DNA from: a virus
Taxonomy: Duplodnaviria; Caudoviricetes
Virus record (IMG/VR): IMGVR_UViG_3300030102_003788
Coordinates: 1 to 56,431 of that record
Direction: 5' to 3' (one strand)
DNA length: 56,431 nt
Part shown: positions 3 to 56,431 of the stretch, one piece after another
Layout: the number at the start of each line of letters is the position of its first letter
Numbering within the stretch: position 1 is the stretch's first letter
Made by a program: the position numbers and the translations under genes
Notes under the pieces: generated by a model
What the model was told of the DNA's origin: nothing
What the model saw: the letters and a program-made list of their open reading frames with translations, nothing else
Databases searched by the model: none

Positions 3-3000
3 AGAAGCTATGATGAGTTTAGGCTTGACTATGCGATTACAGAACAAGTAGATGCTATAACTAGAGAATACAATGTTAAAAATGAAAGAGACAGAAAGCG
101 ACAAGTTGCTATAGAAAATATTATAGACAAAGGAAATAATGTCGCAGAAGCGCAAGGCGCTAGTGTATTTGATTTTGACGAAACTGTTGGTATTAGTGAC
201 AATGTTGTTATAGCAACTAAAGACGGTGTTACTAAAGAAATATCATCTGCTGAGTGGCCAAACATAGGCGAGCAACTAGTAAACGATGGTTGGACAATGG
301 ACTTTTCTGACTTTAACAAAGTAACAGATGGTAAACCTGGTCCATTATTACCAAAACTTAAAAAACAAGTAGAAAGATATGGCGTTGATAATGTTTATAT
401 ACTAACAGCAAGAGCAAAAGAAAGTGCGCCAGCAATACAAGCTTGGTTAAAATCTGAAGGCATTGATTTACCTATAGAAAACATTGTAGGTTTAGGTAAT
501 AGTACTGGTGAGGCAAAAGCTGATTGGATAGAAGAAAATCTTATATGGACTGGTTTTAATGATATATTTTTTGTTGATGATGCTTTTTCAAACGTAGACG
601 CTGTTGACAAAATGTTTATGAAGTATCCTACAGGTTTAATTGCTGACGGAGGTAAATCTGTTTTAGTTAGACCAGAACATAGAGAAACACATGTTAAGTT
701 TAGTGGTAAGACTAACAACGAAACAATGAATATTTTTATTGAACAAACCTCTGGTGTTGATAGAAATAAAAGATACTCTGGAGCAAGAGCTAAACTAGAA
801 AATATTGGTAAAAGCTCTTTTAGATTTAATAACGTTATACCTTATTCGGCTGAAGATTTTAAAGGTTTATTATATCAATTTTTAGGTAAAGGTGATATTG
901 GTGAATACCAAATGGCTTGGTTTAAAGAAAAACTTATTGATCCATACTCTCGTGGAGAAATAAAAGTAAATGAAAAAAAGGTAGAAATAACTGAAAAATA
1001 TAACAAGCTAAAAAAAGAACTACCTAAAATAGGAAGATCTTTGAGAGAAAAAATACAAAGACCAGACGGAACTGAAACCATGTATACTATTGACCACGCC
1101 GTAAGAGTTTATCTTTGGGATAAAAATGGTATTGAAATACCTGGTATAAGCAAAAGAGATAGAGAGCTGTTAGTAAACCAAGTTGCTTCTAGCCAAGAGT
1201 TAATTACTTTTGCTAACCAACTAGGTGCTTTAACCGGGATGAAAGACGGTTATGTTAATGCTGGTAAATATTGGACTGTTGAAAATATAGCTAGTGATAT
1301 TACACAAGCAATAAACGAAAGCGGTAGATCTGAAGCTATGGCTGAGTTTGTAAAGAATAAAAACGAAATATTTTCTGAAGAAAACTTAAATAAAATAGAA
1401 GCTGTACATGGTTCTAAGTTTAGAGAGGCTTTAGAAAATATGTTAGATCGTATGGAAACTGGTAGATCACAAGGTAAAACTTTTGCTAAAGTTGATAGAG
1501 TTACGGACATGTACAATAAATGGACAAATAACTCTGTTGGTGCTATTATGTTTTTAAATGGTAGATCTGCTATATTGCAAACTATATCTAGTTTTAACTA
1601 TATTAAAATGACTGGTCCAAATAATATTATTAATGCTACCAAAGCTTTTGCTAATCAACCTCAGTTTTGGAAAGACTTTGCAATGTTATGGAACTCTAAA
1701 TACTTAGTTTCAAGAAGAAAAGGTCAGCAACGTGGTATTAATGAAGCTGAGTTAATGGCAGCTGTAGAAAAAGCAGATAACAAAGCAAAAGCAGCTGTAG
1801 CTTGGTTATTAGAAAAAGGGTTTTTACCTACACAAATTGCTGATAGTTTTGCTATTGCATCAGGTGGTGCTAGTTATGTTAGAAACTACGGTGATGCTAT
1901 TTACGAAATGCTTTATGACTACAAAGAATCTATAGATTATGAAACCGCTATGTCTACGCCAGAAGGTTTAGATGTTTTAGTAAGTGAAGCACAGTATAAA
2001 GATTTAGTAACTAGTACAGAGCTTAATCGTATATTAGGTGGTAGAAATCTAGCGGATTTAACTAAAGAAGAAATAAGAAAAATTGCTGATCAAATAGCAA
2101 TGGAAAAATTTGTATTAGAAACAGAAACAGGTCAGCAGTCATCTAGACAAGACATGTTATCACAACAGCAGACTGGTGGTTTAGGTAGGTTAATACTCGC
2201 GTTTAAAAACACGCCAATGCAGTATACTAGAAAAATACTTAGAGCAGCACAAGACCTTAAAAACAACAGGGGTAATCCAGCTGAACATATAGGACAAATT
2301 GCTTATTATGGTGTTGTACAAAACTTAATGTTTACAGGTTTACAACAAGCGCTGTATGCTAAACTTGGCGAAGAAGATGAAGAGTGGGATAAGTCTACAG
2401 ATAGAGTTATAAATAGCATGGTTGATAGTATACTTAATGGTATGGGATTATCTGGTACTGTTGTTGCTACTGTTAAAAACGGAGTACTTGAATTTCAAGA
2501 ACAAGATAAAAGAGGTTGGAACGCTGATCATACTTATACCGTTTTAGAGTTTGCTAACTTCTCACCTACTATTGGTAGTAAACTTAGAAAAATATATAGC
2601 TCAATAAAAGGACAGCAATTAAATGAAGGTGCTATAGCTGAAATGGATTTATGGGATCCACAAAACCCAGCTTGGTCATCTGTTGCTAATTTAGTTTCTG
2701 CTTTAACAAACATACCTTTAGATAGGGCTGTTAATAAAATAAACAACTTATTAGCTATATCTGCTGATGAAAATGAATGGTGGCAAAACTTATCTTTAGC
2801 TTTAGGTTGGAATACTTGGGATGTTGGTGTTGAAACCAAAGCAAAAAAAATTAATGTAGAAGTTAAAGAAAGAAAAAAAGAAGAAAAGAAACAAGAAAAA
2901 ATTGATGTTGCTCAAGATAAAGTTGATGTTGTAGTTGAAGAAGAGATTAAAAAAGAAAAAGAAGGTGAGGGTAAAGATGTTAATACTTGTGCGGCTGTAA

Positions 3001-3197
3001 AATCAAACGGACAAAGATGTACTGTTCCTGTTGATAAAGCTGGTGACAAATGTCAATATCATGCTAGTGATGAAGAAAAAGCTAAAATGAAAAAGTGTAG
3101 CTTTATAAAGAAAAACGGAAAACGATGTGGTAATTTTGCTGTTACTGACGCTGGAACATGTAACGTACCACAACATCAACCTGGATATAAAAAGTAA
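3..3197 (+). CDS. C-terminal part of a giant virion-associated (ejected-type) protein with a HAD-family phosphatase domain and two C-terminal Cys3-His zinc-finger-like repeats; 5' partial
   Basis: The frame of ORF 297..3197 is open from the window start. HAD motifs: VFDFDET (165-185), ILTAR, K, FFVDD. C-terminus has CxxxxxNGxRC...C..H twice. The large helical body resembles podovirus internal virion proteins. Confidence 0.7.
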   Translation, partial: RSYDEFRLDYAITEQVDAITREYNVKNERDRKRQVAIENIIDKGNNVAEAQGASVFDFDETVGISDNVVIATKDGVTKEISSAEWPNIGEQLVNDGWTMDFSDFNKVTDGKPGPLLPKLKKQVERYGVDNVYILTARAKESAPAIQAWLKSEGIDLPIENIVGLGNSTGEAKADWIEENLIWTGFNDIFFVDDAFSNVDAVDKMFMKYPTGLIADGGKSVLVRPEHRETHVKFSGKTNNETMNIFIEQTSGVDRNKRYSGARAKLENIGKSSFRFNNVIPYSAEDFKGLLYQFLGKGDIGEYQMAWFKEKLIDPYSRGEIKVNEKKVEITEKYNKLKKELPKIGRSLREKIQRPDGTETMYTIDHAVRVYLWDKNGIEIPGISKRDRELLVNQVASSQELITFANQLGALTGMKDGYVNAGKYWTVENIASDITQAINESGRSEAMAEFVKNKNEIFSEENLNKIEAVHGSKFREALENMLDRMETGRSQGKTFAKVDRVTDMYNKWTNNSVGAIMFLNGRSAILQTISSFNYIKMTGPNNIINATKAFANQPQFWKDFAMLWNSKYLVSRRKGQQRGINEAELMAAVEKADNKAKAAVAWLLEKGFLPTQIADSFAIASGGASYVRNYGDAIYEMLYDYKESIDYETAMSTPEGLDVLVSEAQYKDLVTSTELNRILGGRNLADLTKEEIRKIADQIAMEKFVLETETGQQSSRQDMLSQQQTGGLGRLILAFKNTPMQYTRKILRAAQDLKNNRGNPAEHIGQIAYYGVVQNLMFTGLQQALYAKLGEEDEEWDKSTDRVINSMVDSILNGMGLSGTVVATVKNGVLEFQEQDKRGWNADHTYTVLEFANFSPTIGSKLRKIYSSIKGQQLNEGAIAEMDLWDPQNPAWSSVANLVSALTNIPLDRAVNKINNLLAISADENEWWQNLSLALGWNTWDVGVETKAKKINVEVKERKKEEKKQEKIDVAQDKVDVVVEEEIKKEKEGEGKDVNTCAAVKSNGQRCTVPVDKAGDKCQYHASDEEKAKMKKCSFIKKNGKRCGNFAVTDAGTCNVPQHQPGYKK

Positions 3198-4950: not shown

Positions 4951-5295
4951 ATGCCATTTAAACAACTTAATAATCCTTTTTTAAGGAAAATAGACATAGA
5001 CGCAGAGTCACCTTTAGAAAAACGTAAACGTAAACGTAAAAAATCTAGTGAACCTAGAAAAACAACTAAAGGTAAAGGGCGTAATTTTAGAACTGTAAAG
5101 GAAGGAGCTGGAATGACAGCTAAAGGTGTAAAAGAATATAGACGTAAAAACCCAGGTAGTAAATTAAAAACAGCTGTTACTGGTAAAGTAAAACCAGGTA
5201 GTAAAGCGGCAAAAAGAAGAAAATCGTTCTGCGCTAGATCAAAAGGTTGGACCGGTGAAAGAGGTAAAGCCGCTAGACGTAGATGGAAATGTTAA
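4951..5295 (+). CDS. Small basic phage protein (RRKSFCAR motif) with MPFK..SPL N-terminus
   Basis: Very Lys/Arg-rich; RRKSFCAR...RWKC module recalled from marine phage small proteins. Confidence 0.7.
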   Translation: MPFKQLNNPFLRKIDIDAESPLEKRKRKRKKSSEPRKTTKGKGRNFRTVKEGAGMTAKGVKEYRRKNPGSKLKTAVTGKVKPGSKAAKRRKSFCARSKGWTGERGKAARRRWKC

Positions 5296-5306: not shown

Positions 5307-5648
5307 ATGGCATTTAAACTAAAAAACAACAAATTAAAAAAAATAGTAAAAGAACTTAAAAAAGCATCTAAGATGCACGCTTCACAAGCTGATAGAATAC
5401 AAGCTATGGCTATGGAGTCTGGTTCGTGTGGTAAACCACCAGGAGAGTGTGAGTGTGAAACAAATACGCTACCTGGTATATCACCATTTGCTAAAAAGAA
5501 AAAGAAAGGTAAAAAAGACGCTTGTTATCACAAGGTAAAATCAAGAGTTAAAGTTTGGCCTAGTGCTTATGCTTCTGGTCAGTTAGTTCAATGTAGAAAA
5601 AGAGGTGCTGCTAATTGGGGTACTGGTGGTAAAAAGAAAAAGTCATAA
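5307..5648 (+). CDS. Small basic phage protein, MAFKLK family (DACY..WPSAYASG module)
   Basis: Starts MAFKLK; ISPF precedes a Lys-rich module DACYHKVKSRVKVWPSAYASG. Confidence 0.7.
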   Translation: MAFKLKNNKLKKIVKELKKASKMHASQADRIQAMAMESGSCGKPPGECECETNTLPGISPFAKKKKKGKKDACYHKVKSRVKVWPSAYASGQLVQCRKRGAANWGTGGKKKKS

Positions 5649-6028
5649 TGCCTTACGATATTAAATCTAAGTTTGAAGAAAATAGTCCGCTACCTTGTTG
5701 GACAAAAGCTGGTTATGTAAGAAAACCTGGAACTAAAAAAGGAGAGCCTGGTAGTTGTTATAAACCAAAACCAGCTCTTAAAAAACAAAAAGGCGGTGGT
5801 ACTAAAAAAGTTTGTTTACCAGCTGACAAAGTACGTTCAATGTCTAAGTCTGAAAGAAAAGCTTTGGCAAGTGCTAAAAGTAAAGCTGGTAAAAAAGGTA
5901 AATATAGAAGATCATCTAAAACAAATGTAAAAGGCGCTCGTAAAAAAGGCGCTACACTAAGAGACTGGTTTAAAAAAGAAAACTGGGTACAAGTTGGAAA
6001 CCCAAAGAAAAAATGTGGAGAAGATTAA
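5648..6028 (+). CDS. Small basic phage protein (NSPL-CW..GY; LRDWFK..W)
   Basis: Lys-rich; start coupled to the upstream stop (TAATG). Confidence 0.7.
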   Translation: MPYDIKSKFEENSPLPCWTKAGYVRKPGTKKGEPGSCYKPKPALKKQKGGGTKKVCLPADKVRSMSKSERKALASAKSKAGKKGKYRRSSKTNVKGARKKGATLRDWFKKENWVQVGNPKKKCGED

Positions 6029-25041: not shown

Positions 25042-25062
25042 ATTATATATTATTTACATTAT

Positions 25063-25094
25063 TATTATCCGACTATTGTCGTATTTACATTGTA
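25063..25094 (-). promoter_or_regulatory. Class-1 motif copy
   Basis: TATTATCC-gactattg-TCGTATTT-acattgta. Confidence 0.72.
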
Positions 25095-25096
25095 TT

Positions 25097-25240: not shown

Positions 25241-25252
25241 TGACATGTTTTA

Positions 25253-25498: not shown

Positions 25499-25533
25499 AG
25501 TTTATTTATTTATTTAATTATTATTTACATTTA

Positions 25534-25565
25534 TATTATCCAGTTGACTTCGTATTTACATTGTA
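25534..25565 (-). promoter_or_regulatory. Class-1 motif copy
   Basis: TATTATCC-agttgact-TCGTATTT-acattgta. Confidence 0.72.
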
Positions 25566-25621
25566 AAAGTATATTGTTTGTTTATTATATAATTTACTAT
25601 TGTATGTACTGCGCTGCGTTT

Positions 25622-25750
25622 CTATATGTGCGAATTATAAAATTCATTATTTTCTTTTTTAGTTTTGAATTTAAATACTTTTACTATATTACTTTTAGTA
25701 GTTATTATAGTAGTATAGTCAGTTTGCTTAATTGATTTTATTATTGACAT
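25622..25750 (-). CDS. Hypothetical 42-aa protein (not in ORF track)
   Basis: MSIIKSIKQ...YNSHI*; leader nearly identical to that of the 25498 gene. Confidence 0.45.
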   Translation of the reverse strand: MSIIKSIKQTDYTTIITTKSNIVKVFKFKTKKENNEFYNSHI

Positions 25751-25777
25751 AGTTATTTATTTTATTTATTACATATA

Positions 25778-25809
25778 TATTATCCAAATGCGTTCGTATT
25801 TACTATGTA
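25778..25809 (-). promoter_or_regulatory. Class-1 motif copy
   Basis: TATTATCC-aaatgcgt-TCGTATTT-actatgta. Confidence 0.7.
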
Positions 25810-25859
25810 GAAAAAAGCTAAAATGTTTTGAGTAAGTGCAATTTGTAATTACAACGAAA

Positions 25860-25891
25860 TACAAAGTAAAAACGAATAAAAATGGATAATA
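25860..25891 (+). promoter_or_regulatory. Class-1 motif copy in the opposite (rightward) orientation
   Basis: TACAAAGT-AAAAACGA-ataaaaat-GGATAATA; one mismatch in the AAATACGA box. Confidence 0.55.
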
Positions 25892-25939
25892 ATTATGAAA
25901 AACGATGGCGAGCTGGCGTTTACAAGTGCGTTTTAAGCT

Positions 25940-25967
25940 TAGGGGGGCCGGCCTAGGGGTAGGGGGC
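25940..25967. other. G-rich island with GGCCGGCC palindrome at the strand-switch region
   Basis: TAGGGGGGCCGGCCTAGGGGTAGGGGGC in otherwise very AT-rich DNA. Confidence 0.6.
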
Positions 25968-26000
25968 AACACCACGCTCCAATATTTATAATGTTTTTTT

Positions 26001-26048
26001 TGTGACATAAGCCTATTAATAAACCCTTAGTAACAGGCAAGTGTCACA
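26001..26048. promoter_or_regulatory. Palindromic element TGTGACA-N34-TGTCACA (copy 2)
   Basis: TGTGACATAAGCCTATTA...AGGCAAG-TGTCACA; matches the copy at 20470. Confidence 0.55.
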
Positions 26049-26054
26049 CTTTAC

Positions 26055-26083
26055 TTAAATAAGTATTTATACGTGTGATAATA
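26055..26083 (+). promoter_or_regulatory. Class-2 promoter-like motif heading the late block
   Basis: TTAAA-taagtatttatacgt-GTGATAATA, 30 nt upstream of ORF 26114. Confidence 0.55.
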
Positions 26084-26113
26084 CTGATAAGTAAGTAATT
26101 AAAAAAAACAATT

Positions 26114-26380
26114 ATGGCGTTCAAAATGAAGGGCTGGAGCCCATTTGATAAAAAACACGAAGATAAAGATACTATTGTAGAGCGAACAAAGGATAGAAAG
26201 TTTATGGATAAAGTTTACAAAGCGTTAGACGAAAGCGGTAAACTTCAAGACACTGGAGGTTATTCAGCAAGAGAATTGGCTGCAATGACTGAAAAAGAAA
26301 GAGCAGGTAATATAAATGATTATGAACCGGATTCTTTCAATAAGATGGTACAAGAAATGAAAGAAAAACTTAGTAAATAA
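26114..26380 (+). CDS. Small protein, MAFKMK family
   Basis: Starts MAFKMKGWSPF. Confidence 0.75.
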   Translation: MAFKMKGWSPFDKKHEDKDTIVERTKDRKFMDKVYKALDESGKLQDTGGYSARELAAMTEKERAGNINDYEPDSFNKMVQEMKEKLSK

Positions 26381-26383
26381 ATT

Positions 26384-26677
26384 ATGGCATTTAAACTAAA
26401 AGGTCCGACACTTTATAAAAATAAATATACTGAAGATGGTCTTGTTGACAAAGACATTCCAGAACTTAATCTTTCAGAAAGAGAGGATCCATATGTAACA
26501 TCAAGGATAGAAGCTCAAAAAAAGTTAGACTCAATTAATAAAATGAAGAGCAGCCCACTTGACAAATATGCATCGGCAGCTCAACGTAGAGCAGTTTGGG
26601 CTAATAAAGCTGATGGTGGTGCTGGTCACCCTGATAAGAAAAAGAAGAAGAGGAAAAAGAAAAGTAAAAAGAAATAA
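26384..26677 (+). CDS. Small protein, MAFKLK family
   Basis: Starts MAFKLKGP; internal KMKSSPL followed by YASAAQRRAVWA and poly-Lys. Confidence 0.75.
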   Translation: MAFKLKGPTLYKNKYTEDGLVDKDIPELNLSEREDPYVTSRIEAQKKLDSINKMKSSPLDKYASAAQRRAVWANKADGGAGHPDKKKKKRKKKSKKK

Positions 26678-26679
26678 AT

Positions 26680-26862
26680 ATGGCGTTTAAAATGAAAACA
26701 CCTTTCTTGCAACAATATTTAACTGAGTTCGAAGAGCAGAAGGCTAAAGATGACGCAGAACGTAAAAAGAAAATAGCAGAAAGAAACAAAATGTTAAACG
26801 AGCTAGGAATAGTACTACCAGAACCAAAATGTGGTGTAAACTTTTTTGGTATGAACAGATAA
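26680..26862 (+). CDS. Small protein, MAFKMK family
   Basis: Starts MAFKMKTPF. Confidence 0.7.
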   Translation: MAFKMKTPFLQQYLTEFEEQKAKDDAERKKKIAERNKMLNELGIVLPEPKCGVNFFGMNR

Positions 26863-26886
26863 TTAATAAACATAAAAAATATAAAA

Positions 26887-27399
26887 ATGGCATTTAAAAT
26901 GAAAGGACCTATGTTTTTTGGGTCAGCAATAAAAAAATACGGTAAAAAATCAGAACCAGTTGCAAAAATGAAAGGTGATTTAAACAAAGATGGTAAAATG
27001 TCTGATTACGAAAAAAATAGACAAGACGCTATAGACGAAAACATGGAGAAAGAAGGATCTGGTATGAATTACGGATCTCCTGTAAAAAATAGAGTAACAG
27101 AAGGTGGAAAATTAGTAAATCATACACATAAAGATGGATCAACGCACACTTATGCTGCACCAAAAACAAGACCTGATGGAACAGTAGCGCCTGGTGGTAC
27201 TGATGAAAAAGGAACAATAACACCAGCAACTAAAATGGCTCACGGTAGTAAAGATAAAAAAGGTGGCCCAAAGATGAAATATGGTAAAAAAGATCCTGCG
27301 CCTAAAATGGTTCACAGTGGTAAAAAGAAAAAAGGTGGTCCAAAGATGAAAGATAAGAATCCAGCGCCTAAAATGAATTACGAAAAAAAGAAAAAATAG
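26887..27399 (+). CDS. Basic repetitive protein, MAFKMK family
   Basis: Starts MAFKMKGP; repeated (P/A/T)KM units, MNYGSPV, and an EF-hand-like DLNKDGKMSDYE. Confidence 0.75.
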   Translation: MAFKMKGPMFFGSAIKKYGKKSEPVAKMKGDLNKDGKMSDYEKNRQDAIDENMEKEGSGMNYGSPVKNRVTEGGKLVNHTHKDGSTHTYAAPKTRPDGTVAPGGTDEKGTITPATKMAHGSKDKKGGPKMKYGKKDPAPKMVHSGKKKKGGPKMKDKNPAPKMNYEKKKK

Positions 27400-27445
27400 G
27401 GAAAGTCCCTAAACCAAGTCAATATTAACCAAAAATAAAACCAAA

Positions 27446-27736
27446 ATGACTTATTTATACTACAAGACTAGTACGTATACTAGCAATACTAAACCGAACG
27501 AAAAAACTATTAACCAGTGGAAGCATTTAGCTGACAAAAGTAATTGGAGAATAACACAATTACCTAACGGTTTTTATCAAACTGAGGTAAATGACCCAGA
27601 AAATGATAAAAATTGGCACGATGTTACACGTAGAGAGACCATAGAAGGTGCTGAAGCAGCAATTGATGGCAGCATCGACCATTTCTCTAAAAAATTAGAG
27701 GCTACAAAAGGCCCAAAAGTAGTAAAAACGTTCTAA
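27446..27736 (+). CDS. Conserved hypothetical phage protein
   Basis: NWRITQLPNGFYQTE...W.DVTRRETIEGAE; upstream of groEL. Confidence 0.7.
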   Translation: MTYLYYKTSTYTSNTKPNEKTINQWKHLADKSNWRITQLPNGFYQTEVNDPENDKNWHDVTRRETIEGAEAAIDGSIDHFSKKLEATKGPKVVKTF

Positions 27737-27768
27737 TAGAACAATAATTTAATTAAATTTAATCAAAT

Positions 27769-29334
27769 ATGGAATACAATCAACCTAGTGAGATTGTCAA
27801 AGACGTGAATTTTGGCGATTTTGCAAAAAACAAGGTAATTACGGGCGTTGAAAAGCTCGCAAAAGCAGTAAAATCAACCTTAGGTGCTTCTGGTAAGTGT
27901 GTTATTTACGAAGACGCACGCGGAAACCCGGTCATAACAAAAGATGGTGTAACCGTAGCTGAATCGGTAGTCTTATTTGACCCGGTTGAAAATATGGGTG
28001 CTACCCTTATTAAAGAAGCTGCTAGAAATACAGTGAAAGAAGCAGGTGACGGTACTACTACAGCTACTGTACTTGCTGAATCACTATTAAAAGAAGTAAA
28101 TAATAGTGAAGAAACTATTAGAGATATAAAAAACGGAATAAACTCCGGTTTAAAAAAGGTAAACGATTACCTAAATAAGATTTCTGTAAAGATCGAGGGC
28201 GATATGCTGGAATCTGTTAGTTCAATTAGTTGTAATAATGATGCAGAACTAGGAGAGATTATAGCGGAAGCTTATACTAAAGTAGGTAAAGATGGTGTGG
28301 TGTTAATGGAAGAGTCTCCAACAGAAGAAACGTATGTTGAAGTCGTAGATGGTGTACAAATAGACTCAGGACTCACATCTCCACATTTTATTACTGATAA
28401 AGACAAGCAAGTATGTGAGCTTGATAATCCTTTAGTATTAATCGTAACTTCAGAAATACCAAACATAAGAAAAATACAAAAAATACTAGAGTACGTTATA
28501 AAGAATAAAAGATCACTTTTGATAGTTGCTCCAGTAGAACAGCAGGTTAAAGCTGCACTTCTTATGAATAAAGTAAAAGGTAATATAAAAGTTAATATAG
28601 TTGACTTACCAGGCTTTGGTCCTACTAAAAACGATACATGTGAAGATTTAGCATTTTTAGTTGGAGCCAAGGTTATAAACGAACAATTAGGTGATGATCT
28701 TGATTTAATAGATATTGATTGCTTAGGTGAGGCGTATACAGCTATAACAGATGATAAAAACACTGTATTAACTATTGATACTCCACGCGAGCAAATGAAA
28801 GAACGGATAAAGAGTATTAAGAAAACTATAGATAAGTGGCATAAAAACCCATATATACAGAAAAAACATAGACAAAGACTAGCTATGTTAAACGGTAGTG
28901 TTGGTATTGTAAAAGTTGGTGCTAATTCTAAAGTTGAGATGAAAGAGAAAAAAGATAGAGTAGAAGACGCAATATATGCTACAAAAGCTGCTCTGAAAGA
29001 AGGTATTGTACCAGGTGGTGGTACTGCTCTTTTAAATGCTTCACAAAGCCTAACGAGTGATAACGAAGGTGAAAAAATACTTTTTAAAGCAATACAAGCT
29101 CCATTTCACACTATACTTGATAACGCTGGTTTAACACAAACAGCACCCCGCCCTGACAAAGGTCTAGGCGTTAATGTTGTAACAGGTGAAGCTGTTGATA
29201 TGATATCATCTGGTATTATTGATCCAGTGCTTGTTACAAAGTCAGCGCTTAAAAATGCGGTAAGTGTTGTTTCTACTATTATATCTGCAGATTGTGTAAT
29301 TTCAAATATGAGAACAAATGAAAGCGATAAATAG
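27769..29334 (+). CDS. groEL: Phage-encoded chaperonin GroEL
   Basis: ITKDGVTVA, GDGTTTATVLA, KDRVEDA, GIVPGGG and GIIDP motifs; lacks the GGM tail. Confidence 0.95.
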   Translation: MEYNQPSEIVKDVNFGDFAKNKVITGVEKLAKAVKSTLGASGKCVIYEDARGNPVITKDGVTVAESVVLFDPVENMGATLIKEAARNTVKEAGDGTTTATVLAESLLKEVNNSEETIRDIKNGINSGLKKVNDYLNKISVKIEGDMLESVSSISCNNDAELGEIIAEAYTKVGKDGVVLMEESPTEETYVEVVDGVQIDSGLTSPHFITDKDKQVCELDNPLVLIVTSEIPNIRKIQKILEYVIKNKRSLLIVAPVEQQVKAALLMNKVKGNIKVNIVDLPGFGPTKNDTCEDLAFLVGAKVINEQLGDDLDLIDIDCLGEAYTAITDDKNTVLTIDTPREQMKERIKSIKKTIDKWHKNPYIQKKHRQRLAMLNGSVGIVKVGANSKVEMKEKKDRVEDAIYATKAALKEGIVPGGGTALLNASQSLTSDNEGEKILFKAIQAPFHTILDNAGLTQTAPRPDKGLGVNVVTGEAVDMISSGIIDPVLVTKSALKNAVSVVSTIISADCVISNMRTNESDK

Positions 29335-29575
29335 ATATATAGTAATAAAAAATATAAAAACAGAGCCTAAAAAGGTTGCTGGCCTAATAATGACAGATGA
29401 TACTGACGTTGACAATAGGTATTTAAAAGCAAAAATAATATCGTGTGGTAATTTAGTTGAAGGATTACAAAATGGTGACACGATATATTACGATAAACAT
29501 GCTGGACACGACATATCATGGAAAGATACTCTTTATAGAGTTATTCGTGATAGTGATGTTGTTTTAGTAGATTAA
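29318..29575 (+). CDS. groES: Co-chaperonin GroES
   Basis: MKAINRYIVI...AGLIM...G...GDTIYY...VIRDSDVVLV GroES pattern; adjacent to groEL. Confidence 0.85.
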   Translation: MKAINRYIVIKNIKTEPKKVAGLIMTDDTDVDNRYLKAKIISCGNLVEGLQNGDTIYYDKHAGHDISWKDTLYRVIRDSDVVLVD

Positions 29576-29646
29576 GCCTAAACCACAAACCTAAACCCTA
29601 GAACCTAAAAACAAAAACAAATTATTAATTAAAAAAAAACAAAATT

Positions 29647-30015
29647 ATGAAATTATTTAAAATTCCAGGTGTTGCTTCTGACGCACTAGATGGACAAAAC
29701 ATGTTTGTTGACATAACTACATTACAAGATGTAGATATAACTGACGATGACTGTATTATTGCTGGTAATGGTTGGACTGTTACTTTTACTTTTGACGGTA
29801 CTGATGCTGCTGAAAAATTATTAAATGCTCAAAAAATGGCAGACTATTTAGTAGACAAAATGCTTCCTTATTTAGGTAATGATATGAACAGAAAAGAGTT
29901 CAATACTGTTTTCAAACTTTGGGACGGTCTAACTATAGCTGAGATTCACACAGAAACTGGTATAGTAAGAACTAGTGCTCCTAACACAGCATTAATATCT
30001 GTTGCACTATCTTAA
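29647..30015 (+). CDS. Hypothetical acidic protein, possibly structural
   Basis: 122-aa ORF with an A-rich leader. Confidence 0.6.
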   Translation: MKLFKIPGVASDALDGQNMFVDITTLQDVDITDDDCIIAGNGWTVTFTFDGTDAAEKLLNAQKMADYLVDKMLPYLGNDMNRKEFNTVFKLWDGLTIAEIHTETGIVRTSAPNTALISVALS

Positions 30016-30021
30016 TATTAA

Positions 30022-30462
30022 TTGAGATTAACTGCGCAGGATCTGCGTGAAATGAATATCCTTAAGTATTACAGGCTCACTAGAAAGTGGGTCTGTAAAA
30101 CTTACGGGTTAAAAGATGCAGATTTAGAATTATTAATTTATTTAGATTGTAAAGAAAGATTTACACGACAAGAGTTTATAGATGGTACTTATACGTACTC
30201 ATGGGACAAAGCAAGGTGGGACAGATTAAGAAGTGAAGGTTGGATAGATGTTTGGAGACATAGAAATAGAACAACTATAAAATATTCTATATTTAAAACT
30301 TCATGGAAATGCTCACAGATGATAAGTAGAATTTATAGAATACTTTTAGGTGATGAAGACTTACCTATATCAGAAAGAAGTATTTTTTATAAAAATAAAT
30401 CATATACAGATAAAGTTTACAATAAAGCTATAGATGATATGATAAAAGATAAAAATAGATAA
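30022..30462 (+). CDS. Hypothetical protein, possibly winged-helix (MarR-like); TTG start
   Basis: YGLKDADLELLIYL...RL..EGWI pattern. Confidence 0.5.
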   Translation: MRLTAQDLREMNILKYYRLTRKWVCKTYGLKDADLELLIYLDCKERFTRQEFIDGTYTYSWDKARWDRLRSEGWIDVWRHRNRTTIKYSIFKTSWKCSQMISRIYRILLGDEDLPISERSIFYKNKSYTDKVYNKAIDDMIKDKNR

Positions 30463-30463
30463 T

Positions 30464-30886
30464 ATGCCAAGAAAGTGTAAGGGTAGTTTTAAGATGAAAT
30501 ACAATAATGCAAGTTTTCCATTTAAAGGAGAAAACCATGACTTTTTACACGAAGGCTATAAAATAGTACGTAAGGATTTAGATGACGGTATACAAGGTGA
30601 GGCTGAAAATGGTAAAATTATCAATATAGATGTAAGTATACCTAAAGGTAGTAAAAAAGAAAAAGAAGTTATTGTACACGAGGTGCATCATCAAAAAGAG
30701 ATGGATAGTGGTAAATTATCTTACGATGATGACAGTGTAGAAGATAAAATAGCAAATAAAACATATACAAGAGAAGACGGTAATTTAATAGATGATAAAA
30801 CCGGAGAAGTTTTTGAAGAAGGAGATAAACGATTACCGCATGAAAAAAGAGCATACGCAAAAAGTGATAAAATAAAAAACGCATAA
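30464..30886 (+). CDS. Zincin-type (HExxH) metallopeptidase-like protein
   Basis: VIVHEVHH plus downstream PHEKRAY (third-ligand Glu); N-terminal SFKMK...FPF. Confidence 0.7.
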   Translation: MPRKCKGSFKMKYNNASFPFKGENHDFLHEGYKIVRKDLDDGIQGEAENGKIINIDVSIPKGSKKEKEVIVHEVHHQKEMDSGKLSYDDDSVEDKIANKTYTREDGNLIDDKTGEVFEEGDKRLPHEKRAYAKSDKIKNA

Positions 30887-30887
30887 T

Positions 30888-31475
30888 ATGGCATTTAAAA
30901 TGAATAGACCTTTAAAATTAAAAGGTCCAAAAAAATCAGTACTAAATTTAGGAAGAGCAAGAAATAAACCAAGTATATACTACAATAGCAAAATGGGTCC
31001 TATGTTATACACTTCGCCATCAGCGCTTAAACAAGCTGAAGAAGGTATGGGCGATATGGGTGGTATGGAAGCTATGATGGGCATGATGGGTGGAGGAGAA
31101 GCTCCTGTTGCCCCACAACCAACAGAATCAAAAGAAGAAAAAACAGGAGGTAAAGTAGAAAGCGCTTGGCAGTTTGATGCAATGGACTTAGAAAGTGGTG
31201 CTATGGGTAAGGTGCAAAAAGACGAAGCTACAGGTATGCTTTATGTTATTGTAGAAAATGACGATGAACTAATAGAAGGCATAGGTAAAGATGCAAAAGT
31301 ATTTTTACCACCAAATATAGTAAAAGATGCAGGTGCTAAAATTGGAGAGTTGCTTCCTGACAACGATTATCAAGTTCAGTTAAATACTGAAACTAATGAG
31401 TACGAAGTACAAGTTGTTAACCCATCTGGTGCAGGTCAAGAAGATTTTGAACCAGAATTTGAAGGAGGAGACTAA
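30888..31475 (+). CDS. Protein with MAFKM N-terminus, Gly/Met-rich linker and acidic C-terminal domain
   Basis: MAFKMNRP...YTSPSALKQ...GMGDMGGMEAMMGMMGGG. Confidence 0.7.
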   Translation: MAFKMNRPLKLKGPKKSVLNLGRARNKPSIYYNSKMGPMLYTSPSALKQAEEGMGDMGGMEAMMGMMGGGEAPVAPQPTESKEEKTGGKVESAWQFDAMDLESGAMGKVQKDEATGMLYVIVENDDELIEGIGKDAKVFLPPNIVKDAGAKIGELLPDNDYQVQLNTETNEYEVQVVNPSGAGQEDFEPEFEGGD

Positions 31476-31477
31476 TA

Positions 31478-31678
31478 ATGGAAATACAAGGAGGTGTTGG
31501 AACACCATTTAATCAAACAGAAAAACCAGTTTTTGACGAAAGCAAAGGTTGGAAAAAAGGAGAAGCTTACACTACTAAAAGTGGTAAAAAAGGCCATTAT
31601 GTTTTCGATCCTAATGGTAAAAAATATTTTATGACTAGTGATGGCAAGCTGCACACAGGACAAATAGACGATTTATAA
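31478..31678 (+). CDS. Small hypothetical protein
   Basis: 66-aa ORF with GTPF near the N-terminus. Confidence 0.6.
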   Translation: MEIQGGVGTPFNQTEKPVFDESKGWKKGEAYTTKSGKKGHYVFDPNGKKYFMTSDGKLHTGQIDDL

Positions 31679-31679
31679 T

Positions 31680-31961
31680 ATGGGATTATTTAAAACTATA
31701 GGAGGTGTTACTTCACCAGTATTACAAGTTACTGTGCCAAATTATTGGTACAAAGTAAACGGTAAAAAAGTAACCTACGAAGAATATAAAAAGGCTCACA
31801 AATACGGTGTTGACGGTAGAAGACCTAATTTACAAACTAATGACCCTGATCCTTTTGGTATAAAAGCTAAACACAAAGCAGATAGAGAAAAACTTAGAAA
31901 ACCTACTGTTTTAACTGAAGAGCAGACAAAAGTAAAGGAAGAACAAGAAAAGAAAAAATAA
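31680..31961 (+). CDS. Small hypothetical protein
   Basis: Starts MGLFK...TSPV. Confidence 0.6.
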   Translation: MGLFKTIGGVTSPVLQVTVPNYWYKVNGKKVTYEEYKKAHKYGVDGRRPNLQTNDPDPFGIKAKHKADREKLRKPTVLTEEQTKVKEEQEKKK

Positions 31962-31963
31962 AT

Positions 31964-32350
31964 ATGTTAGATAAATTATTTAGTGGCGGTGCCGCTGATT
32001 TAGTAAAAAACGTAGGTGGAGTTATAGATAACTTGCATACGTCAAAAGAAGAAAAGTTAGAAGCTGAAAAGCAAATAAAAGATATGATAATGGGTTATGA
32101 AGCTGAAATGCAAAAGCAAGTTACAGCAAGATGGCAGTTAGATATGAACTCAGATTCATGGCTTAGTAAAAACATAAGACCTTTGGTTTTAGTGTTTTTA
32201 GTAGTTAGCACGGTGTTATTAATATTTATTGACGCTGGTGTTATAGATTTTAAAGTAGAAGACAAATGGACTGACTTACTACAGTTAGTATTAATAACAG
32301 TGATTGGTGCCTACTTTGGTGGTAGATCACTAGAAAAAGTAAAAAAATAA
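31964..32350 (+). CDS. Holin (GTA 3TM holin-like family)
   Basis: RW..DM.SDSWLSKNIRP, two TM segments, and AYFGGRS.EK. Confidence 0.75.
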   Translation: MLDKLFSGGAADLVKNVGGVIDNLHTSKEEKLEAEKQIKDMIMGYEAEMQKQVTARWQLDMNSDSWLSKNIRPLVLVFLVVSTVLLIFIDAGVIDFKVEDKWTDLLQLVLITVIGAYFGGRSLEKVKK

Positions 32351-32354
32351 AAAT

Positions 32355-33134
32355 ATGGCAATAAGTAATTTTACAGTAAGAATAGAACCAGATATAATCG
32401 ATGGAGATGTATCAAAAGTAATAGGTGCTCAAACACCATCAGCAACAGACGCACCATTTCAATCTGGAGATATTCTTTTTGACTGGCAACCAATACAGGT
32501 TCCAAAAGGAACTAACAAATTAGTTAGTATATCAGGTTATATTATGGGGCAAGACGGTGGCGTTCAGGTAAATTCTGATATAGAGTTTGTGTTTGCTAAA
32601 ACAGTTAGTGGCGTAGCACCAACAACCCTTGGTGAAGAAAATGAACCTCAAACATTATGTTTTGAACTACCTAAACATCTTATTGGTTTTGCAAAAGTAG
32701 AAGGAACATCTTCAGCTACCGTAGGTGGAGAGTTTGGAGATTATTTTACTTCTAATTATGGAGGCGCAAACGGCGGTACACTTCCGCTTATACTGCAGGG
32801 TGAAACCACTGGTGTTAGTGTTGGTTTTGATACTATATACGTAGCAGCGTTTTGTGGTGGTGCAGTTGATTTTTCAACTGGAGTTAAACCAACCGCACAG
32901 GCGACTACATCCACAGATACAATAGCTGTTGATGGTGTTGATCCTAGAAAATGTTTTCAAATAGGCGACACAATTTACACAAACACAGATGATACTCCTT
33001 TAGGTACTGTTAAATCAATGAGTGCAAGTGAAATAGTGTTAAATGCAAATTTAGGTGCTCAAGTAGAAGATAATGAAGAAATAGTAAACGCAAACCCAAT
33101 AAGAGTAATTTTTGGTTTTGAAAAAAGTAGATAA
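32355..33134 (+). CDS. Probable virion structural protein
   Basis: Gly/Thr/Asp-rich beta composition, 259 aa. Confidence 0.55.
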   Translation: MAISNFTVRIEPDIIDGDVSKVIGAQTPSATDAPFQSGDILFDWQPIQVPKGTNKLVSISGYIMGQDGGVQVNSDIEFVFAKTVSGVAPTTLGEENEPQTLCFELPKHLIGFAKVEGTSSATVGGEFGDYFTSNYGGANGGTLPLILQGETTGVSVGFDTIYVAAFCGGAVDFSTGVKPTAQATTSTDTIAVDGVDPRKCFQIGDTIYTNTDDTPLGTVKSMSASEIVLNANLGAQVEDNEEIVNANPIRVIFGFEKSR

Positions 33135-54827: not shown

Positions 54828-56431
54828 ATGGCAAAAGAATTTGAAAAACATATGATGTATGACCCTGAAACAGGTAAGGGTTATGAGGCTAACACGCATG
54901 AAGATCATGTACGCATGGGTAAAATGGGTTATGTTCACGAAAAACCAAAAGGCCCTTTTAAAGTTAAACAACCTTACAACATAGCTACGGGTGGAACAAG
55001 TAAGTCAAACCCTTGGCTTACTTCATTAGAAGCTAAAGCTGGTGAAGGAGAATATTTAGGTGGTTTTCCTGAGTGGTCAAAAGTAAGTGATGCTAAAGAC
55101 ACTTTATCTAAAATAATGGAGCATCAAGAAAAATTTAGGAAAATTAAACAAAAAGGAAAAGAAAACAAAGAAAAAGAAAATCTTGATGATGATAACACTT
55201 TAGGTGGAGATACTATAAAAGATGATGGTGATCCTGATGACAACACTTTAGGTGGAGATGTTAGAAAAGATGACGGTGGTAATGTAGTTAATCCTAATGA
55301 TAAAACTCTAGGTGATATTAGAAAAGATGACGGTGATCCTGATGATAACACTCTAGGTGGTGATATTAGAAAAGATGACAGTGGTGGCGATACACTTACG
55401 CCTACTAGTAAAGAAAATACAGGAGATAATCTAGGAAGTCAACAATCTGTAACTGCAAACGATGCAAATCAAAACATAGGAGCAGGACAAAGTTATAACA
55501 GAAAACAAAGAAACCAAATAAATAATAGTTATCCTAAAAACAATGTTAATCCAAACGTAGCTGGTATTACATCTGGCAAAAACTCTGGAATATCAAACGC
55601 TTTAGGTGGTGGTGAGTTTAGAAAATTTACAAATAAAAGCGTGTTTAATAACGATGGTCAGGTATCTGGTTATGTCAGTAAAGGTAAAGATGCTATAGGA
55701 AAATCATGGAATTATAGCTTTGATATAAAAGAAGATGCTAACGGTTTACGCACAATATCTTTTAATAAAAACGTTTTTAAAGGTTCTAATGGAGCAATGA
55801 AACAAATTTTTAGAAACGCTGGTGTACCTGTAACAGGTGAGCTTTCTGCTGCTCAATGGAAAAAACTTAGAGGTTATTATACAACAAAACTACAAGAAGT
55901 TGAAAGTTCTTTAGCTGAGATACAACAAAAATACAGTGACTATAATGATGTTGATAAAAGTCAAAAAATTTACAGCGATTTTTTAGATAAATATCCTGTT
56001 GAAGGTGTGCAACTGTTAAAAATGAAGTCTAGAGGATTTTTTAACGGTGATCTTCAGTCTGATGCCCCTACACAATACAAAACACCTATACAGTTTAAAT
56101 CTCCATTTCCAAGGCGTGATTTAAGTATAAAAAGATATAGAGAAAACTGGATGCCTAGCGCGCCTATGAATTACGGAAGTCCACTGCGTCAGCAAGAGCA
56201 ACTAAACATAAATTCAGAATTTGGTACTATATGGGAAAAAATGAAAGCATATGGCCCAACAATGGATAAAAAAATTGATACTTTTATAAAACATACTAAA
56301 TACGACCCGACTACAGATAAACCTATAAACTCTTTTCAAAATAAAGAGTGGGTTAATATAATAACTAAGTGGTTGCAAGGTAAAAAAGCTGAAATGGTAA
56401 AAGCTACAAATGAAAAGAATAATGACGCTAT
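54828..56431 (+). CDS. Large probable internal virion protein, 3' partial (not in ORF track)
   Basis: ATG 54828 (MAKEFEKHMMYDPETG...) reads without a stop to the window end; contains acidic repeats, FKSPF and APMNYGSPL. Confidence 0.75.
   Translation, partial: MAKEFEKHMMYDPETGKGYEANTHEDHVRMGKMGYVHEKPKGPFKVKQPYNIATGGTSKSNPWLTSLEAKAGEGEYLGGFPEWSKVSDAKDTLSKIMEHQEKFRKIKQKGKENKEKENLDDDNTLGGDTIKDDGDPDDNTLGGDVRKDDGGNVVNPNDKTLGDIRKDDGDPDDNTLGGDIRKDDSGGDTLTPTSKENTGDNLGSQQSVTANDANQNIGAGQSYNRKQRNQINNSYPKNNVNPNVAGITSGKNSGISNALGGGEFRKFTNKSVFNNDGQVSGYVSKGKDAIGKSWNYSFDIKEDANGLRTISFNKNVFKGSNGAMKQIFRNAGVPVTGELSAAQWKKLRGYYTTKLQEVESSLAEIQQKYSDYNDVDKSQKIYSDFLDKYPVEGVQLLKMKSRGFFNGDLQSDAPTQYKTPIQFKSPFPRRDLSIKRYRENWMPSAPMNYGSPLRQQEQLNINSEFGTIWEKMKAYGPTMDKKIDTFIKHTKYDPTTDKPINSFQNKEWVNIITKWLQGKKAEMVKATNEKNNDA
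55188..55379 (+). repeat. Four degenerate coding repeats DDNTLGGD(I/V/T)(R/I)KDDG
   Basis: Visible as gatgataacact(t/c)taggtgg.gat...aaagatga repeats. Confidence 0.8.

What the first reader, a model, noticed from the sequence alone, without database searches (positions are those of the whole stretch)
26114..31961. Shared MAFK(M/L)K ... SP(L/F/V) peptide tag on about 12 unrelated late proteins: candidate capsid-targeting and processing system
Seen: six ORFs begin MAFK(M/L)(K/N) (5307, 26114, 26384, 26680, 26887, 30888). Variants occur at 4951 (MPFK), 31680 (MGLFK), 30464 (SFKMK) and 10254 (FSKKF). Downstream they carry (S/T)P(F/L/V): WSPF, SSPL, KTPF, GSPV, ESPL, ISPF, NSPL (5648), KSPF, GTPF (31478), TSPV. 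The rest of each protein is unrelated (basic modules, acidic domains, a protease). Codons differ synonymously (GCA/GCG, TTT/TTC, AAA/AAG), which points to selection on the peptide rather than the DNA. Established: T4 internal proteins use a short N-terminal capsid-targeting sequence that the head protease removes. Inference: this is a general virion-loading tag with a cleavage site at or after SP(L/F), delivering a cocktail of small effectors. This is my best candidate for an undescribed system.
Basis: partly seen in the sequence, partly recalled or inferred. Interest (0 to 1): 0.85.

Follow-up and report, generated by a model that had tools for sequence, protein, structure and literature searches.

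The report
Shared terminal peptide tag on phage proteins
A large group of uncultured marine phages puts the same seven-residue peptide (MAFKMKG) on the end of over a hundred unrelated small basic proteins and on a small zinc protease, most likely as an address label for loading them into the virus particle, though that has not been shown.

Summary
Six ORFs start MAFK(M/L)(K/N); about 0.0002 are expected from composition. In viral contigs the exact MAFKMKG coding pattern hit more than 120 loci. I found 262 distinct tagged proteins in 105 unrelated sequence clusters. They are small, lysine-rich, hydrophilic and almost all of unknown function.

Every tag whose strand could be judged (249 of 249) lies on the morphogenesis strand. 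The tags are confined to one clade. Sister clades and five related isolate records have none.

The "protease" is a near-core mini zincin that usually carries the tag itself. Its profile finds 694 relatives. Some are the C-terminal domain of giants of 1,400-2,725 aa whose body matches the window's own end-spanning giant ORF. Others are N-terminal domains of 450-650 aa proteins that end in ...AFKMKG(W/F/Y) at the extreme C-terminus.

The tag therefore works at either terminus and is not a translation-start signal. My best reading (about 0.4) is that a polyvalent protein has been broken into separate ORFs, each keeping a terminal address or recognition tag for head loading and/or processing by the zincin. 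Neither virion presence nor cleavage is shown. SP-hydrophobic is enriched near the N-termini but is not universal.

The parts
26114..26380 (+). Tagged small protein (88 aa), MAFKMKGWSPF...
   Evidence: It has a homologue in 1 of 120 tag-selected loci. No Pfam or PHROG family.
26384..26677 (+). Tagged small protein (97 aa), MAFKLKGPTLY..., with a poly-Lys C-terminus
   Evidence: Homologue in 1 of 120 loci. No family.
26680..26862 (+). Tagged small protein (60 aa), MAFKMKTPF...
   Evidence: Homologue in 0 of 120 loci.
26887..27399 (+). Tagged basic protein (170 aa), MAFKMKGPMFF...
   Evidence: Homologue in 0 of 120 loci. No tblastn match in phage isolates.
27446..27736 (+). Conserved 96-aa protein specific to the tag-bearing clade. 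Linked to the system by association only.
   Evidence: Found in 35 of 120 tag-selected loci and in 0 of 80 and 0 of 48 sister-clade loci. Homologues are 65-93% identical. The AF2 model has pLDDT 76.7 with no significant fold match.
30464..30886 (+). Mini zincin metallopeptidase (140 aa, HEVHH). The tag is degenerate and internal here (GSFKMK at residues 7-12); orthologues start MAFKMK or MAFKLG.
   Evidence: Alignment A1: H72, E73, H76, Y87 and E127 are invariant, as is the tag's Phe. The gene lies between the 30022 and 31964 homologues in 46 of 50 spanning loci, and 79 of 94 members start with the tag. The profile finds 694 relatives. Fold neighbours are zincins at Z 4.4-6.5.
30888..31475 (+). 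Tagged protein (195 aa), MAFKMNRPLKLKGP..., with a Met/Gly-rich then acidic body
   Evidence: Homologues in 3 of 120 loci. Belongs to a 6-member cargo cluster.
5307..5648 (+). Tagged protein (113 aa), MAFKLKNNKL.... Its C-terminal module is shared with T4-like cyanophage proteins.
   Evidence: Matches phrog_727 and phrog_3477. tblastn matches 365 phage records. Residues 67-112 match residues 323-368 of Synechococcus phage S-P4 gp060, E 3e-21.
4951..5295 (+). Variant tag (MPFKQLNNPF...ESPL) fused to a DUF6321 module
   Evidence: Pfam DUF6321, E 3e-11. The same module in pelagiphages starts MAIRKTTKGK, without the tag. Matches residues 463-502 of S-P4 gp060, E 9e-8.
3..3197 (+). C-terminal part (1064 aa, cut by the contig end) of a giant ORF. 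It is homologous to the body of giants that carry the zincin as their C-terminal domain.
   Evidence: 36-38% identity over about 700 aa to P0055, P0059, P0063 and P0068, E 1e-110 to 1e-146. Pfam zf-primase at residues 988-1026.
54828..56429 (+). ORF cut by the other contig end (534 aa). Possibly the N-terminal part of the same giant protein; not shown.
   Evidence: Open at the 3' end. The two ends do not join in frame and there is no terminal overlap. No family.
31478..31961 (+). Two small ORFs (31478-31678 and 31680-31961) with GTPF or TSPV at residues 9-14 but no canonical tag. Weak candidates only.
   Evidence: Homologues in 3 and 4 of 120 loci.
5648..6028 (+). Basic protein (126 aa) with NSPL at residues 12-15 and no tag. 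By eye its modules resemble other parts of S-P4 gp060.
   Evidence: BLAST to P0001 did not reach E 1e-3, so the resemblance is by eye only.

Best explanation
The motif is a short terminal peptide signal. Its consensus is (M)-A-F-K-M-K-G, then an aromatic residue or Ser, then Pro or Ser, then a hydrophobic residue. It is often followed within about 20 residues by [ST]-P-hydrophobic-[K/N].

It is specific to one large clade of uncultured marine podovirus-like phages. The cultured relatives of this clade infect Flavobacterium, Cellulophaga, Maribacter and Tenacibaculum. The tag marks two things: more than 100 unrelated families of small, very basic, hydrophilic proteins, and a near-core mini zincin metallopeptidase of the kind found in phage 'polyvalent proteins'.

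I read the system as a polyvalent protein broken into pieces. Other phages string effector modules and a zincin together in one giant protein that is packaged in the head and delivered with the DNA. This clade encodes them as separate, rapidly exchanged ORFs. Each ORF keeps a terminal address tag, which takes it and the zincin to the same place. That place is most likely the procapsid, so that the proteins are co-injected. The tag may also be what the zincin recognises and trims.

Shown here:
- the constraint acts at the peptide level;
- the tag works at either terminus;
- the tags are restricted to the morphogenesis strand;
- the tags are restricted to one clade and occur together with the zincin;
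- homologous zincins are fused to giant proteins whose body matches the window's own giant ORF.

Inferred, not shown:
- packaging into the virion;
- delivery into the host;
- cleavage.
For: 1. Peptide-level selection. By my count from the listing, all but about 12 have no in-frame start upstream. Synonymous codons vary at every position. In 202 non-redundant proteins the positional consensus is M100 A92 F93 K100 M87 K91 G78.

2. Control in cellular genomes. In 596 billion bases of prokaryote genomes there are only 74 hits. By my count 22 are internal to a Bacteroidota asparaginase-like enzyme and the rest look like chance; none is a small tagged ORF.

3. Cargo. The 262 distinct tagged proteins fall into 105 clusters, 82 of them singletons. 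For 175 cargo proteins the median pI is 9.8 and GRAVY is -1.15, and none has a membrane-like segment. Of 150 scanned, almost none has a family.

4. Strand. 249 of 249 tags share the strand of the GroEL, terminase, portal and capsid markers, and 61 of 62 are opposite to the replication markers.

5. Clade restriction and co-occurrence:
- window-like terminase set: 19 of 79 loci have tags, 20 have the zincin, 18 have both;
- two sister sets: 0 of 80 and 0 of 48 for both features;
- five related isolate records: 0 of 5;
- the zincin lies in 46 of 50 loci spanning its slot, and 79 of 94 members are tagged.

6. Either terminus. 11 of 38 proteins with an N-terminal zincin end in ...NKNK[SA][AP]FKMKG[WFY] four to ten residues before the stop. 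They occupy the same slot in sister loci L422-L426.

7. Fusion evidence. Among the best 150 of 694 zincin relatives, 38-39 carry the zincin as a C-terminal domain, about 27 of them in giants of 1,400-2,725 aa. The 700 aa before it are 36-38% identical to window ORF 3-3197.

8. Established context. From passages I read in Iyer et al. 2017 (PMC5512222): the zincin-like peptidase is the commonest domain of polyvalent proteins. P1 DdrB and the N4 virion RNA polymerase are head-packaged. The peptidase is predicted to process the protein itself. The described core (HExxH plus a Glu in the next helix) fits alignment A1 and the model.

9. Annotation-level hints:
- the modules of window ORFs 5307 and 4951 lie in one 529-aa cyanomyovirus protein annotated 'T4-like structural protein, T4 GC0119';
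- a small, very basic protein (gp080) of Cellulophaga phage phi38:1 is annotated 'structural protein';
- 2 of 150 cargo proteins hit a PHROG named 'virion structural protein'.
Against: - There are no proteomic data for any tagged protein, and no cultured member of the clade was found (searches gave no match).
- The main tagged cluster (26114-27399) is the first set of genes after the divergent junction with the replication genes. That position is also typical of early host-takeover genes, and expression timing is unknown.
- No prohead protease of a known family was found among the roughly 40 window ORFs I scanned.
- Tags and zincin co-occur within one clade, so this may be a single evolutionary event rather than independent evidence.
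- The 'structural protein' labels are depositors' annotations. The text of Sullivan et al. 2010 calls T4-GC119 a hypothetical protein in a mobile cassette, and the proteomics table is a supplement I could not open.
- That the giant ORF is in the virion is itself inferred. It has no PHROG family and no BLAST match in phi38:1, elemo, Panino or MW202828.
- The TP-hydrophobic stretch before the zincin core may be part of the fold rather than a processing site.
Confidence: 0.4

Rival explanations
1. The tag is the recognition or processing signal of the co-encoded zincin, acting in the infected cell and not in the virion. The peptidase would trim, activate or destroy tagged proteins. A C-terminal copy on zincin fusions would act as a tail that blocks the enzyme's own active site, or as a self-cleavage site.
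For: The zincin is the only enzyme found solely in the tagged clade, and it is near-core. The tag is at the far end of proteins that start with the zincin. Outside the zincin domain of 35 such fusions, xFKxK occurs 11 times against 1.3 expected, and SP-hydrophobic-[KNQR] 27 times against 4.8. From memory, not from any call: solved minimal zincins (abylysin, jannalysin) are zymogens blocked by their own C-terminal tail. These are weak neighbours here.
Against: No cleavage is shown. The zincin carries the tag itself, which fits co-sorting better than enzyme and substrate. In the giants the FK-type motif is not enriched outside the junction: 0 seen against 4.7 expected. This rival is compatible with the best explanation, not exclusive of it.
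Confidence: 0.25
2. The tag is a short motif that engages a host factor. It could be a degron for a host AAA+ protease or a docking site on a host machine, giving the small proteins a timed lifetime or a common target.
For: The tag is exposed and disordered: pLDDT is below 50 for residues 1-24 of the zincin model. Position 2 is almost always small (A 92%, G 4%, then T and P), which by general knowledge would allow removal of the initiator Met. From memory only: the hydrophobic-hydrophobic-basic-hydrophobic pattern resembles a class of N-terminal ClpX recognition signals.
Against: The motif also works at C-termini preceded by Ser or Ala and inside ORF 30464, so it does not need a free N-terminus. 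A host-factor motif would be expected in sister clades that infect related hosts, and they have none. Nothing here tests host binding.
Confidence: 0.1
3. The shared N-terminus is a legacy of how new genes arise here. Repeated duplication or recombination at gene starts would copy a 5' cassette, with little or no function for the peptide itself.
For: Tagged ORFs sit in hypervariable islands between conserved genes. Window tagged ORFs have homologues in 0-7 of 120 loci, against 35-66 for their neighbours. In other samples' contigs, similarity to the window breaks right at the start of the ORF after 30462 (loose ends).
Against: Upstream DNA is not conserved. Synonymous sites vary while the residues stay fixed across 105 unrelated clusters. 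The tag's Phe is as invariant as the catalytic residues in the zincin family. The motif is also conserved at C-termini in representatives that are less than 50% identical to each other.
Confidence: 0.05
4. The motif is a nucleotide-level translation-initiation context for an organism that lacks Shine-Dalgarno sequences.
For: There is a GCA bias at codon 2: 72% against 28% background. The sequence around the start is A-rich.
Against: The motif also occurs at C-termini and internally. It is absent from all replication-strand genes (61 of 62 tags lie on the opposite strand) and from the capsid, portal and terminase genes. The residues are fixed while codons vary. Related phages of related hosts lack it.
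Confidence: 0.03

Closest known systems
T4 capsid-targeting sequence on internal proteins (IPI-III, Alt), removed by the prohead protease gp21
   Same: A short N-terminal peptide is shared by otherwise unrelated, small, mostly basic proteins encoded in hypervariable loci, and a protease belongs to the system. What T4 does is established knowledge; I saw review titles and abstracts only.
   Different: The sequence is unrelated. The motif here also works at C-termini. No gp21-like protease was found; the associated enzyme is a zincin that carries the tag itself. Neither packaging nor cleavage is shown here.
Phage polyvalent proteins with zincin-like metallopeptidase domains (Iyer, Burroughs, Anand, de Souza, Aravind 2017, PMC5512222)
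   Same: The zincin has HExxH plus a downstream Glu in the next helix. Homologues are domains of multi-domain giants that also carry a Zeta-toxin/AAA_33 P-loop domain. The genes lie on the virion-gene strand.
   Different: In the window's clade the protein is taken apart. The zincin and more than 100 cargo families are separate ORFs joined only by a shared terminal peptide. The passages I read do not describe such a tag.
Encapsulin cargo-loading peptides
   Same: A short terminal peptide, at either the N- or the C-terminus, directs unrelated cargo into an HK97-fold shell. This is recalled and comes from no call.
   Different: There is no sequence similarity, and no binding to the capsid protein has been tested here. 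This is an analogy of mechanism only.
Minimal zincins (selecase MJ1213, abylysin, jannalysin) and the IrrE/PprI, SprT/Wss1 and CapP peptidases
   Same: Similar size (about 110 aa) and an HExxH core. The profile matches selecase at E 0.0037. Fold neighbours: PprI Z 6.5, 6d2s Z 6.0, SprT 4.9, CapP 4.5, selecase 4.4, abylysin 4.4.
   Different: All scores are below the tool's caution line (Z 8), and Foldseek found nothing at E <= 0.001. Membership of any of these families is not established.

Membership tests
T4-type capsid-targeting-sequence system | A short N-terminal peptide shared by otherwise unrelated proteins | tested here: met
   Six window ORFs. 262 proteins in 105 clusters.
T4-type capsid-targeting-sequence system | The tagged proteins are present inside the capsid | not testable with these tools
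   There are no proteomics for this clade, only annotation-level hints from distant phages.
T4-type capsid-targeting-sequence system | The tag is removed by a gp21-type prohead protease at a defined site | tested here: inconclusive
   No prohead protease family appeared among about 40 window ORFs scanned with PHROGs or Pfam. Not all ORFs were scanned, and cleavage itself cannot be tested here.
Polyvalent-protein zincin-like metallopeptidase (Iyer et al. 2017) | An HExxH helix followed by a helix with a conserved Glu, on a small beta-sheet core | tested here: met
   H72, E73, H76 and E127 are invariant in 25 sequences. The model has helices at 64-82 and 125-138 and preceding strands.
Polyvalent-protein zincin-like metallopeptidase (Iyer et al. 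2017) | Occurs as one domain of large multi-domain phage proteins | tested here: met
   This holds for homologues: 38-39 of the best 150 carry it C-terminally, about 27 of them in proteins of 1,400-2,725 aa, and 8 carry it internally. The window's own copy is stand-alone.
Polyvalent-protein zincin-like metallopeptidase (Iyer et al. 2017) | Assignment to one of the 12 clades defined in the paper | not tested
   The paper's alignments are external files, and I read passages only.
Pfam eCIS_core (PF13699) | Score above the Pfam gathering threshold | tested here: not met
   6 of 25 members gave weak hits, best E 0.0069. The window protein gave none.
Minigluzincins (selecase, abylysin) | Significant sequence or fold similarity over the whole domain | tested here: inconclusive
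   The profile hit at E 0.0037 covers profile positions 17-67 only. VIA-align gives Z 4.4.

The most novel reading that the evidence does not exclude
This clade has replaced the giant polyvalent polyprotein with a sorting system. A portable peptide of 7-11 residues, working at either terminus, loads any protein into the virion. A dedicated zincin that carries the same tag travels with the cargo and processes it. The system supports a rapidly exchanged arsenal of more than 100 families of small injected effectors. In effect it would be a phage 'signal peptide plus signal peptidase' for head loading.
Probability: 0.3. Interest if true: 0.85.

Novelty: new variant of a known kind. Interest (0 to 1): 0.72.

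Why it matters
If the tag is a loading or recognition signal, it picks out the probable set of injected or co-sorted effectors of an abundant marine phage clade from sequence alone. The clade is large: at least 600 viral contigs have a close terminase relative, and 20 marine runs from 9 studies hold at least part of the stretch, one of them half or more of its sampled words. The cargo runs to more than 100 families of unknown small basic proteins, which are good candidates for host takeover or anti-defence functions.

It would also show how polyvalent proteins evolve by splitting and fusing around a linker or tag. And it would offer a very short, portable peptide for putting foreign proteins into capsids.

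The question can be tested directly with virion proteomics, a cleavage assay and a reporter fusion.

Tried and rejected
- Complex prediction of zincin residues 25-140 with the first 40 residues of tagged proteins, both as alignments, gave a score of 0.02 against a mark of 0.32. The tool gave no verdict, so this is evidence neither for nor against binding.
- Searches of phage isolates with window proteins 26887 and 30464 and with a 419-aa tagged protein from L117 gave no match. A tagged zincin from L032 gave only 8 distant zincin hits.
- Literature search for the strings MAFKMK, MPFKMK, FKMKG, MAFKLK and MPFKLK found one unrelated paper on calmodulin and KRas. Searches for DUF6321 and for 'Syn9' with 'gp114' found none. 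My statement that the tag is not in print rests on these searches of the held library only.
- Promoter and terminator scans, and a Bacteroidota-type -33/-7 pattern, were at chance level, so I could not define transcription units or timing.
- Foldseek against the PDB gave nothing at E <= 0.001 for the zincin model or for the 27446 model.
- Scaffold idea. Scaffold-like homologues of sister clades start with M, 0-2 residues, then hydrophobic-K-hydrophobic-K/R (17 of 32 and 37 of 47), and none of 45 in the window's clade do. However, the window's clade keeps an equivalent VIKVDL segment behind an acidic extension. I therefore treat the likeness to the tag as possibly coincidental and do not use it as evidence.
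- Laid contigs. Summed contig depth is 10-1000 times higher over backbone genes than over tagged-ORF bodies in four marine runs. The tool warns that contig depth cannot rank genes, so I do not use this as evidence. One RNA-library run holds contigs over part of 30560-31883, but that does not show transcription.
- GroEL as the tag's partner is rejected, because tagless sister clades also encode GroEL and GroES.

Full report
**What the window is.** The window is the whole record held: 56,431 bases in one contig, about 33% G+C. Genes run on the + strand at 1-10451 and 26114-56431, and on the - strand at 10561-26008.

The + strand holds GroEL (27769), GroES (29318), a holin-like protein (31964), a GroES-like protein (34010), the large terminase (34820), the portal (37042), a capsid-type 'virion structural protein' (40651), a 2,105-aa virion protein (44715) and tail-fibre-like genes. 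The - strand holds replication-type genes. Both contig ends cut ORFs, and the ends do not join in frame.

By capsid, portal and terminase similarity, the nearest named relatives are Flavobacterium elemo phages, Cellulophaga phi38:1 and Calle, Maribacter Panino, Tenacibaculum Gundel and an uncultured podovirus, MW202828. Protein identities are 28-68%. A Bacteroidota host is therefore an inference.

**The observation.** Six ORFs start MAFK(M/L)(K/N) at exactly the stated coordinates. Composition predicts 0.0002 such N-termini among 73 proteins. Upstream DNA is not conserved.

ORF 30464 carries the motif eight residues in, and its orthologues carry it at the start. ORF 4951 is a plausible variant. 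ORFs 31680 and 10254 do not fit.

**The motif outside the window.** By my count from the listing, all but about 12 have no possible upstream start. The same pattern in 596 billion bases of prokaryote genomes gave 74 hits. By my count 22 lie inside a Bacteroidota asparaginase-like enzyme and the rest look like chance.

In 202 non-redundant tagged proteins the consensus is M100 A92 F93 K100 M87 K91 G78. Position 8 is F, S, P, M or W, position 9 is P or S, and a hydrophobic residue follows at 10-11. Synonymous codons vary at each position, with a GCA preference at codon 2.

[ST]P-hydrophobic is about 30 times enriched over shuffled sequence at residues 7-15. It is present within 30 residues in only 83 of 202 proteins and absent in 86.

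**The cargo.** After the first 12 residues are removed, 262 distinct tagged proteins fall into 105 clusters, 82 of them singletons. The largest cluster is the zincin, with 75 members.

The cargo is small (median 124 aa) and lysine-rich (15.7% against 8.0%). For 175 cargo proteins the median pI is 9.8 and GRAVY is -1.15, and none has a membrane-like segment. Of 150 scanned, 4 have DUF6321, 2 hit a PHROG named 'virion structural protein', and almost nothing else matches.

The window's tagged ORFs have homologues in 0-7 of 120 related loci, while neighbouring backbone genes have them in 35-66.

**Where the tags are.**
- 115 of 120 tag-selected loci share genes with the window, so this is one clade.
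- 249 of 249 tags share the strand of the morphogenesis markers, and 61 of 62 lie opposite to the replication markers.
- In terminase-selected sets, the window-like set has tags in 19 of 79 loci and the zincin in 20, with both in 18. Many loci in this set are too short to reach the region.
- The MW202828-like set (80 loci, 953 kb) and the elemo-like set (48 loci, 700 kb) have neither. Nor do five related isolate records.
- A conserved 96-aa protein (27446) is also specific to the clade.

**The protease.** ORF 30464 belongs to a family in which H72, E73, H76, Y87, E127 and the tag's Phe are invariant.

The AF2 model has pLDDT 78.6, a disordered N-terminal 24 residues, a small sheet, the HExxH helix and a C-terminal helix bearing the Glu. 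Pfam gives only sub-threshold peptidase hits (M90, M91, eCIS_core). The PDB profile search finds selecase at E 0.0037. Foldseek finds nothing significant. VIA-align ranks zincins first (PprI 6.5, 6d2s 6.0, lugdulysin 5.1, SprT 4.9), all below the tool's caution line. Its 30 nearest Atlas clusters are all viral and have no Pfam family.

The gene sits between the 30022 and 31964 homologues in 46 of 50 spanning loci, and 79 of 94 members start with the tag.

**The decisive comparison.** The family profile finds 694 representatives at E <= 1e-3 and 384 at E <= 1e-10. The best 150 divide as follows:
- 61-66 are stand-alone, and 37 of 66 of these are tagged;
- 38 have the zincin at the N-terminus of proteins of 200-660 aa;
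- 38-39 have it as the C-terminal domain, about 27 of them in giants of 1,400-2,725 aa;
- 8 have it internally.

The roughly 700 residues that precede the zincin in the giants are 36-38% identical to window ORF 3-3197, E 1e-110 to 1e-146. So the window has the body of the giant, and its zincin has become a separate tagged ORF.

In the giants the junction holds FK-rich repeats (for example KFKKPKFKK) and [ST]P-hydrophobic-[KN][KR]L just before the zincin core. The [ST]P-hydrophobic stretch is present in 23 of 38 of the C-terminal class.

In 11 of 38 N-terminal-zincin proteins, the extreme C-terminus reads ...NKNK[SA][AP]FKMKG[WFY], followed by a further three to nine residues. These proteins occupy the zincin's slot in sister loci with the same backbone.

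The motif therefore works at either terminus. That excludes a translation-start explanation and argues for a binding or recognition peptide.

**Link to known biology.** From passages I read in Iyer et al. 2017 (PMC5512222), zincin-like peptidases are the commonest domain of phage polyvalent proteins. These proteins are predicted to be head-packaged and injected, and for P1 DdrB and the N4 virion RNA polymerase packaging has been shown. The peptidase is predicted to process the protein itself. One giant homologue also has a Zeta-toxin/AAA_33 P-loop domain.

Window ORFs 4951 and 5307 match separate modules of one 529-aa cyanomyovirus protein annotated as structural. In pelagiphages the DUF6321 module lacks the tag.

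**Verdict.** Virion presence, timing and cleavage all remain untested.

My odds are:
- about 0.4 for a virion-loading tag;
- about 0.25 for a zincin-recognition signal without packaging;
- about 0.1 for a host-factor motif;
- about 0.08 together for non-functional legacy or a nucleotide-level signal;
- the remaining 0.17 or so is unassigned.

The first two are not mutually exclusive.

Noticed in passing
window 27769-29575 and 34010-34600: The phage encodes a GroEL (521 aa), a GroES (85 aa) and a second, longer GroES-like protein (196 aa, phrog_13932). Tagless sister clades have them too.
   Followed up: partly
window 1-3197 and 54828-56431: Both contig ends cut long ORFs. There is no terminal overlap and the ends do not join in frame, so the record is probably incomplete by a stretch inside a giant gene. 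No tRNA genes were found.
   Followed up: partly
window 5994-8339: A 781-aa protein with a signal-peptide-like start and about ten repeats of a Cys-containing unit (GC[TM]D..AFNY[DN]..AN.DDGSC), read by eye. It has homologues in only 3 of 120 related loci.
   Followed up: no
window 3228-4948: Three ORFs (359, 96 and 119 aa) have hydrophobic, signal- or anchor-like N-terminal regions, just upstream of the 4951/5307/5648 basic-module genes. They are conserved in 13-15 of 120 loci.
   Followed up: no
window 4951-6028; L421:2023-3612: Three adjacent small window ORFs correspond to modules that are fused in one 529-aa protein of Synechococcus phage S-P4 (gp060). That protein also has an internal GMKMKGG. 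BLAST supports two of the three.
   Followed up: partly
L423:8114-8851, L425:8137-8931, L426:11247-12257: In the sister sub-clade, the protein after the zincin fusion ends in ...SPAKKYKK...GSAAKLYKKK or ...SSPAKKSCGYKK. The SP-hydrophobic-K element also seems to occur at C-termini.
   Followed up: no
L130:18809-19828, L127, L420:17621-18823: Scaffold-like proteins of sister clades have conserved N-termini (MFKMKLEG, MEIKVRSL, MAFFKKQG) that resemble the tag. The window's clade has an acidic N-terminal extension instead.
   Followed up: partly
L140, L158, L160 and about 19 more genome loci: A Bacteroidota asparaginase-like enzyme contains an internal MAFKMKGRVGDSPIIGAG. This is the same heptapeptide followed by SP-hydrophobic, and is probably a coincidence.
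   Followed up: no
window 26000-35000: Twenty public marine, estuary or plankton runs from 9 studies (2014-2025) hold from 5% to 85% of the sampled words of this stretch (19 of them 22% or more). In other samples the ORF after position 30462 starts MGFKLG or MAFKMKG and then diverges from the window.
   Followed up: partly
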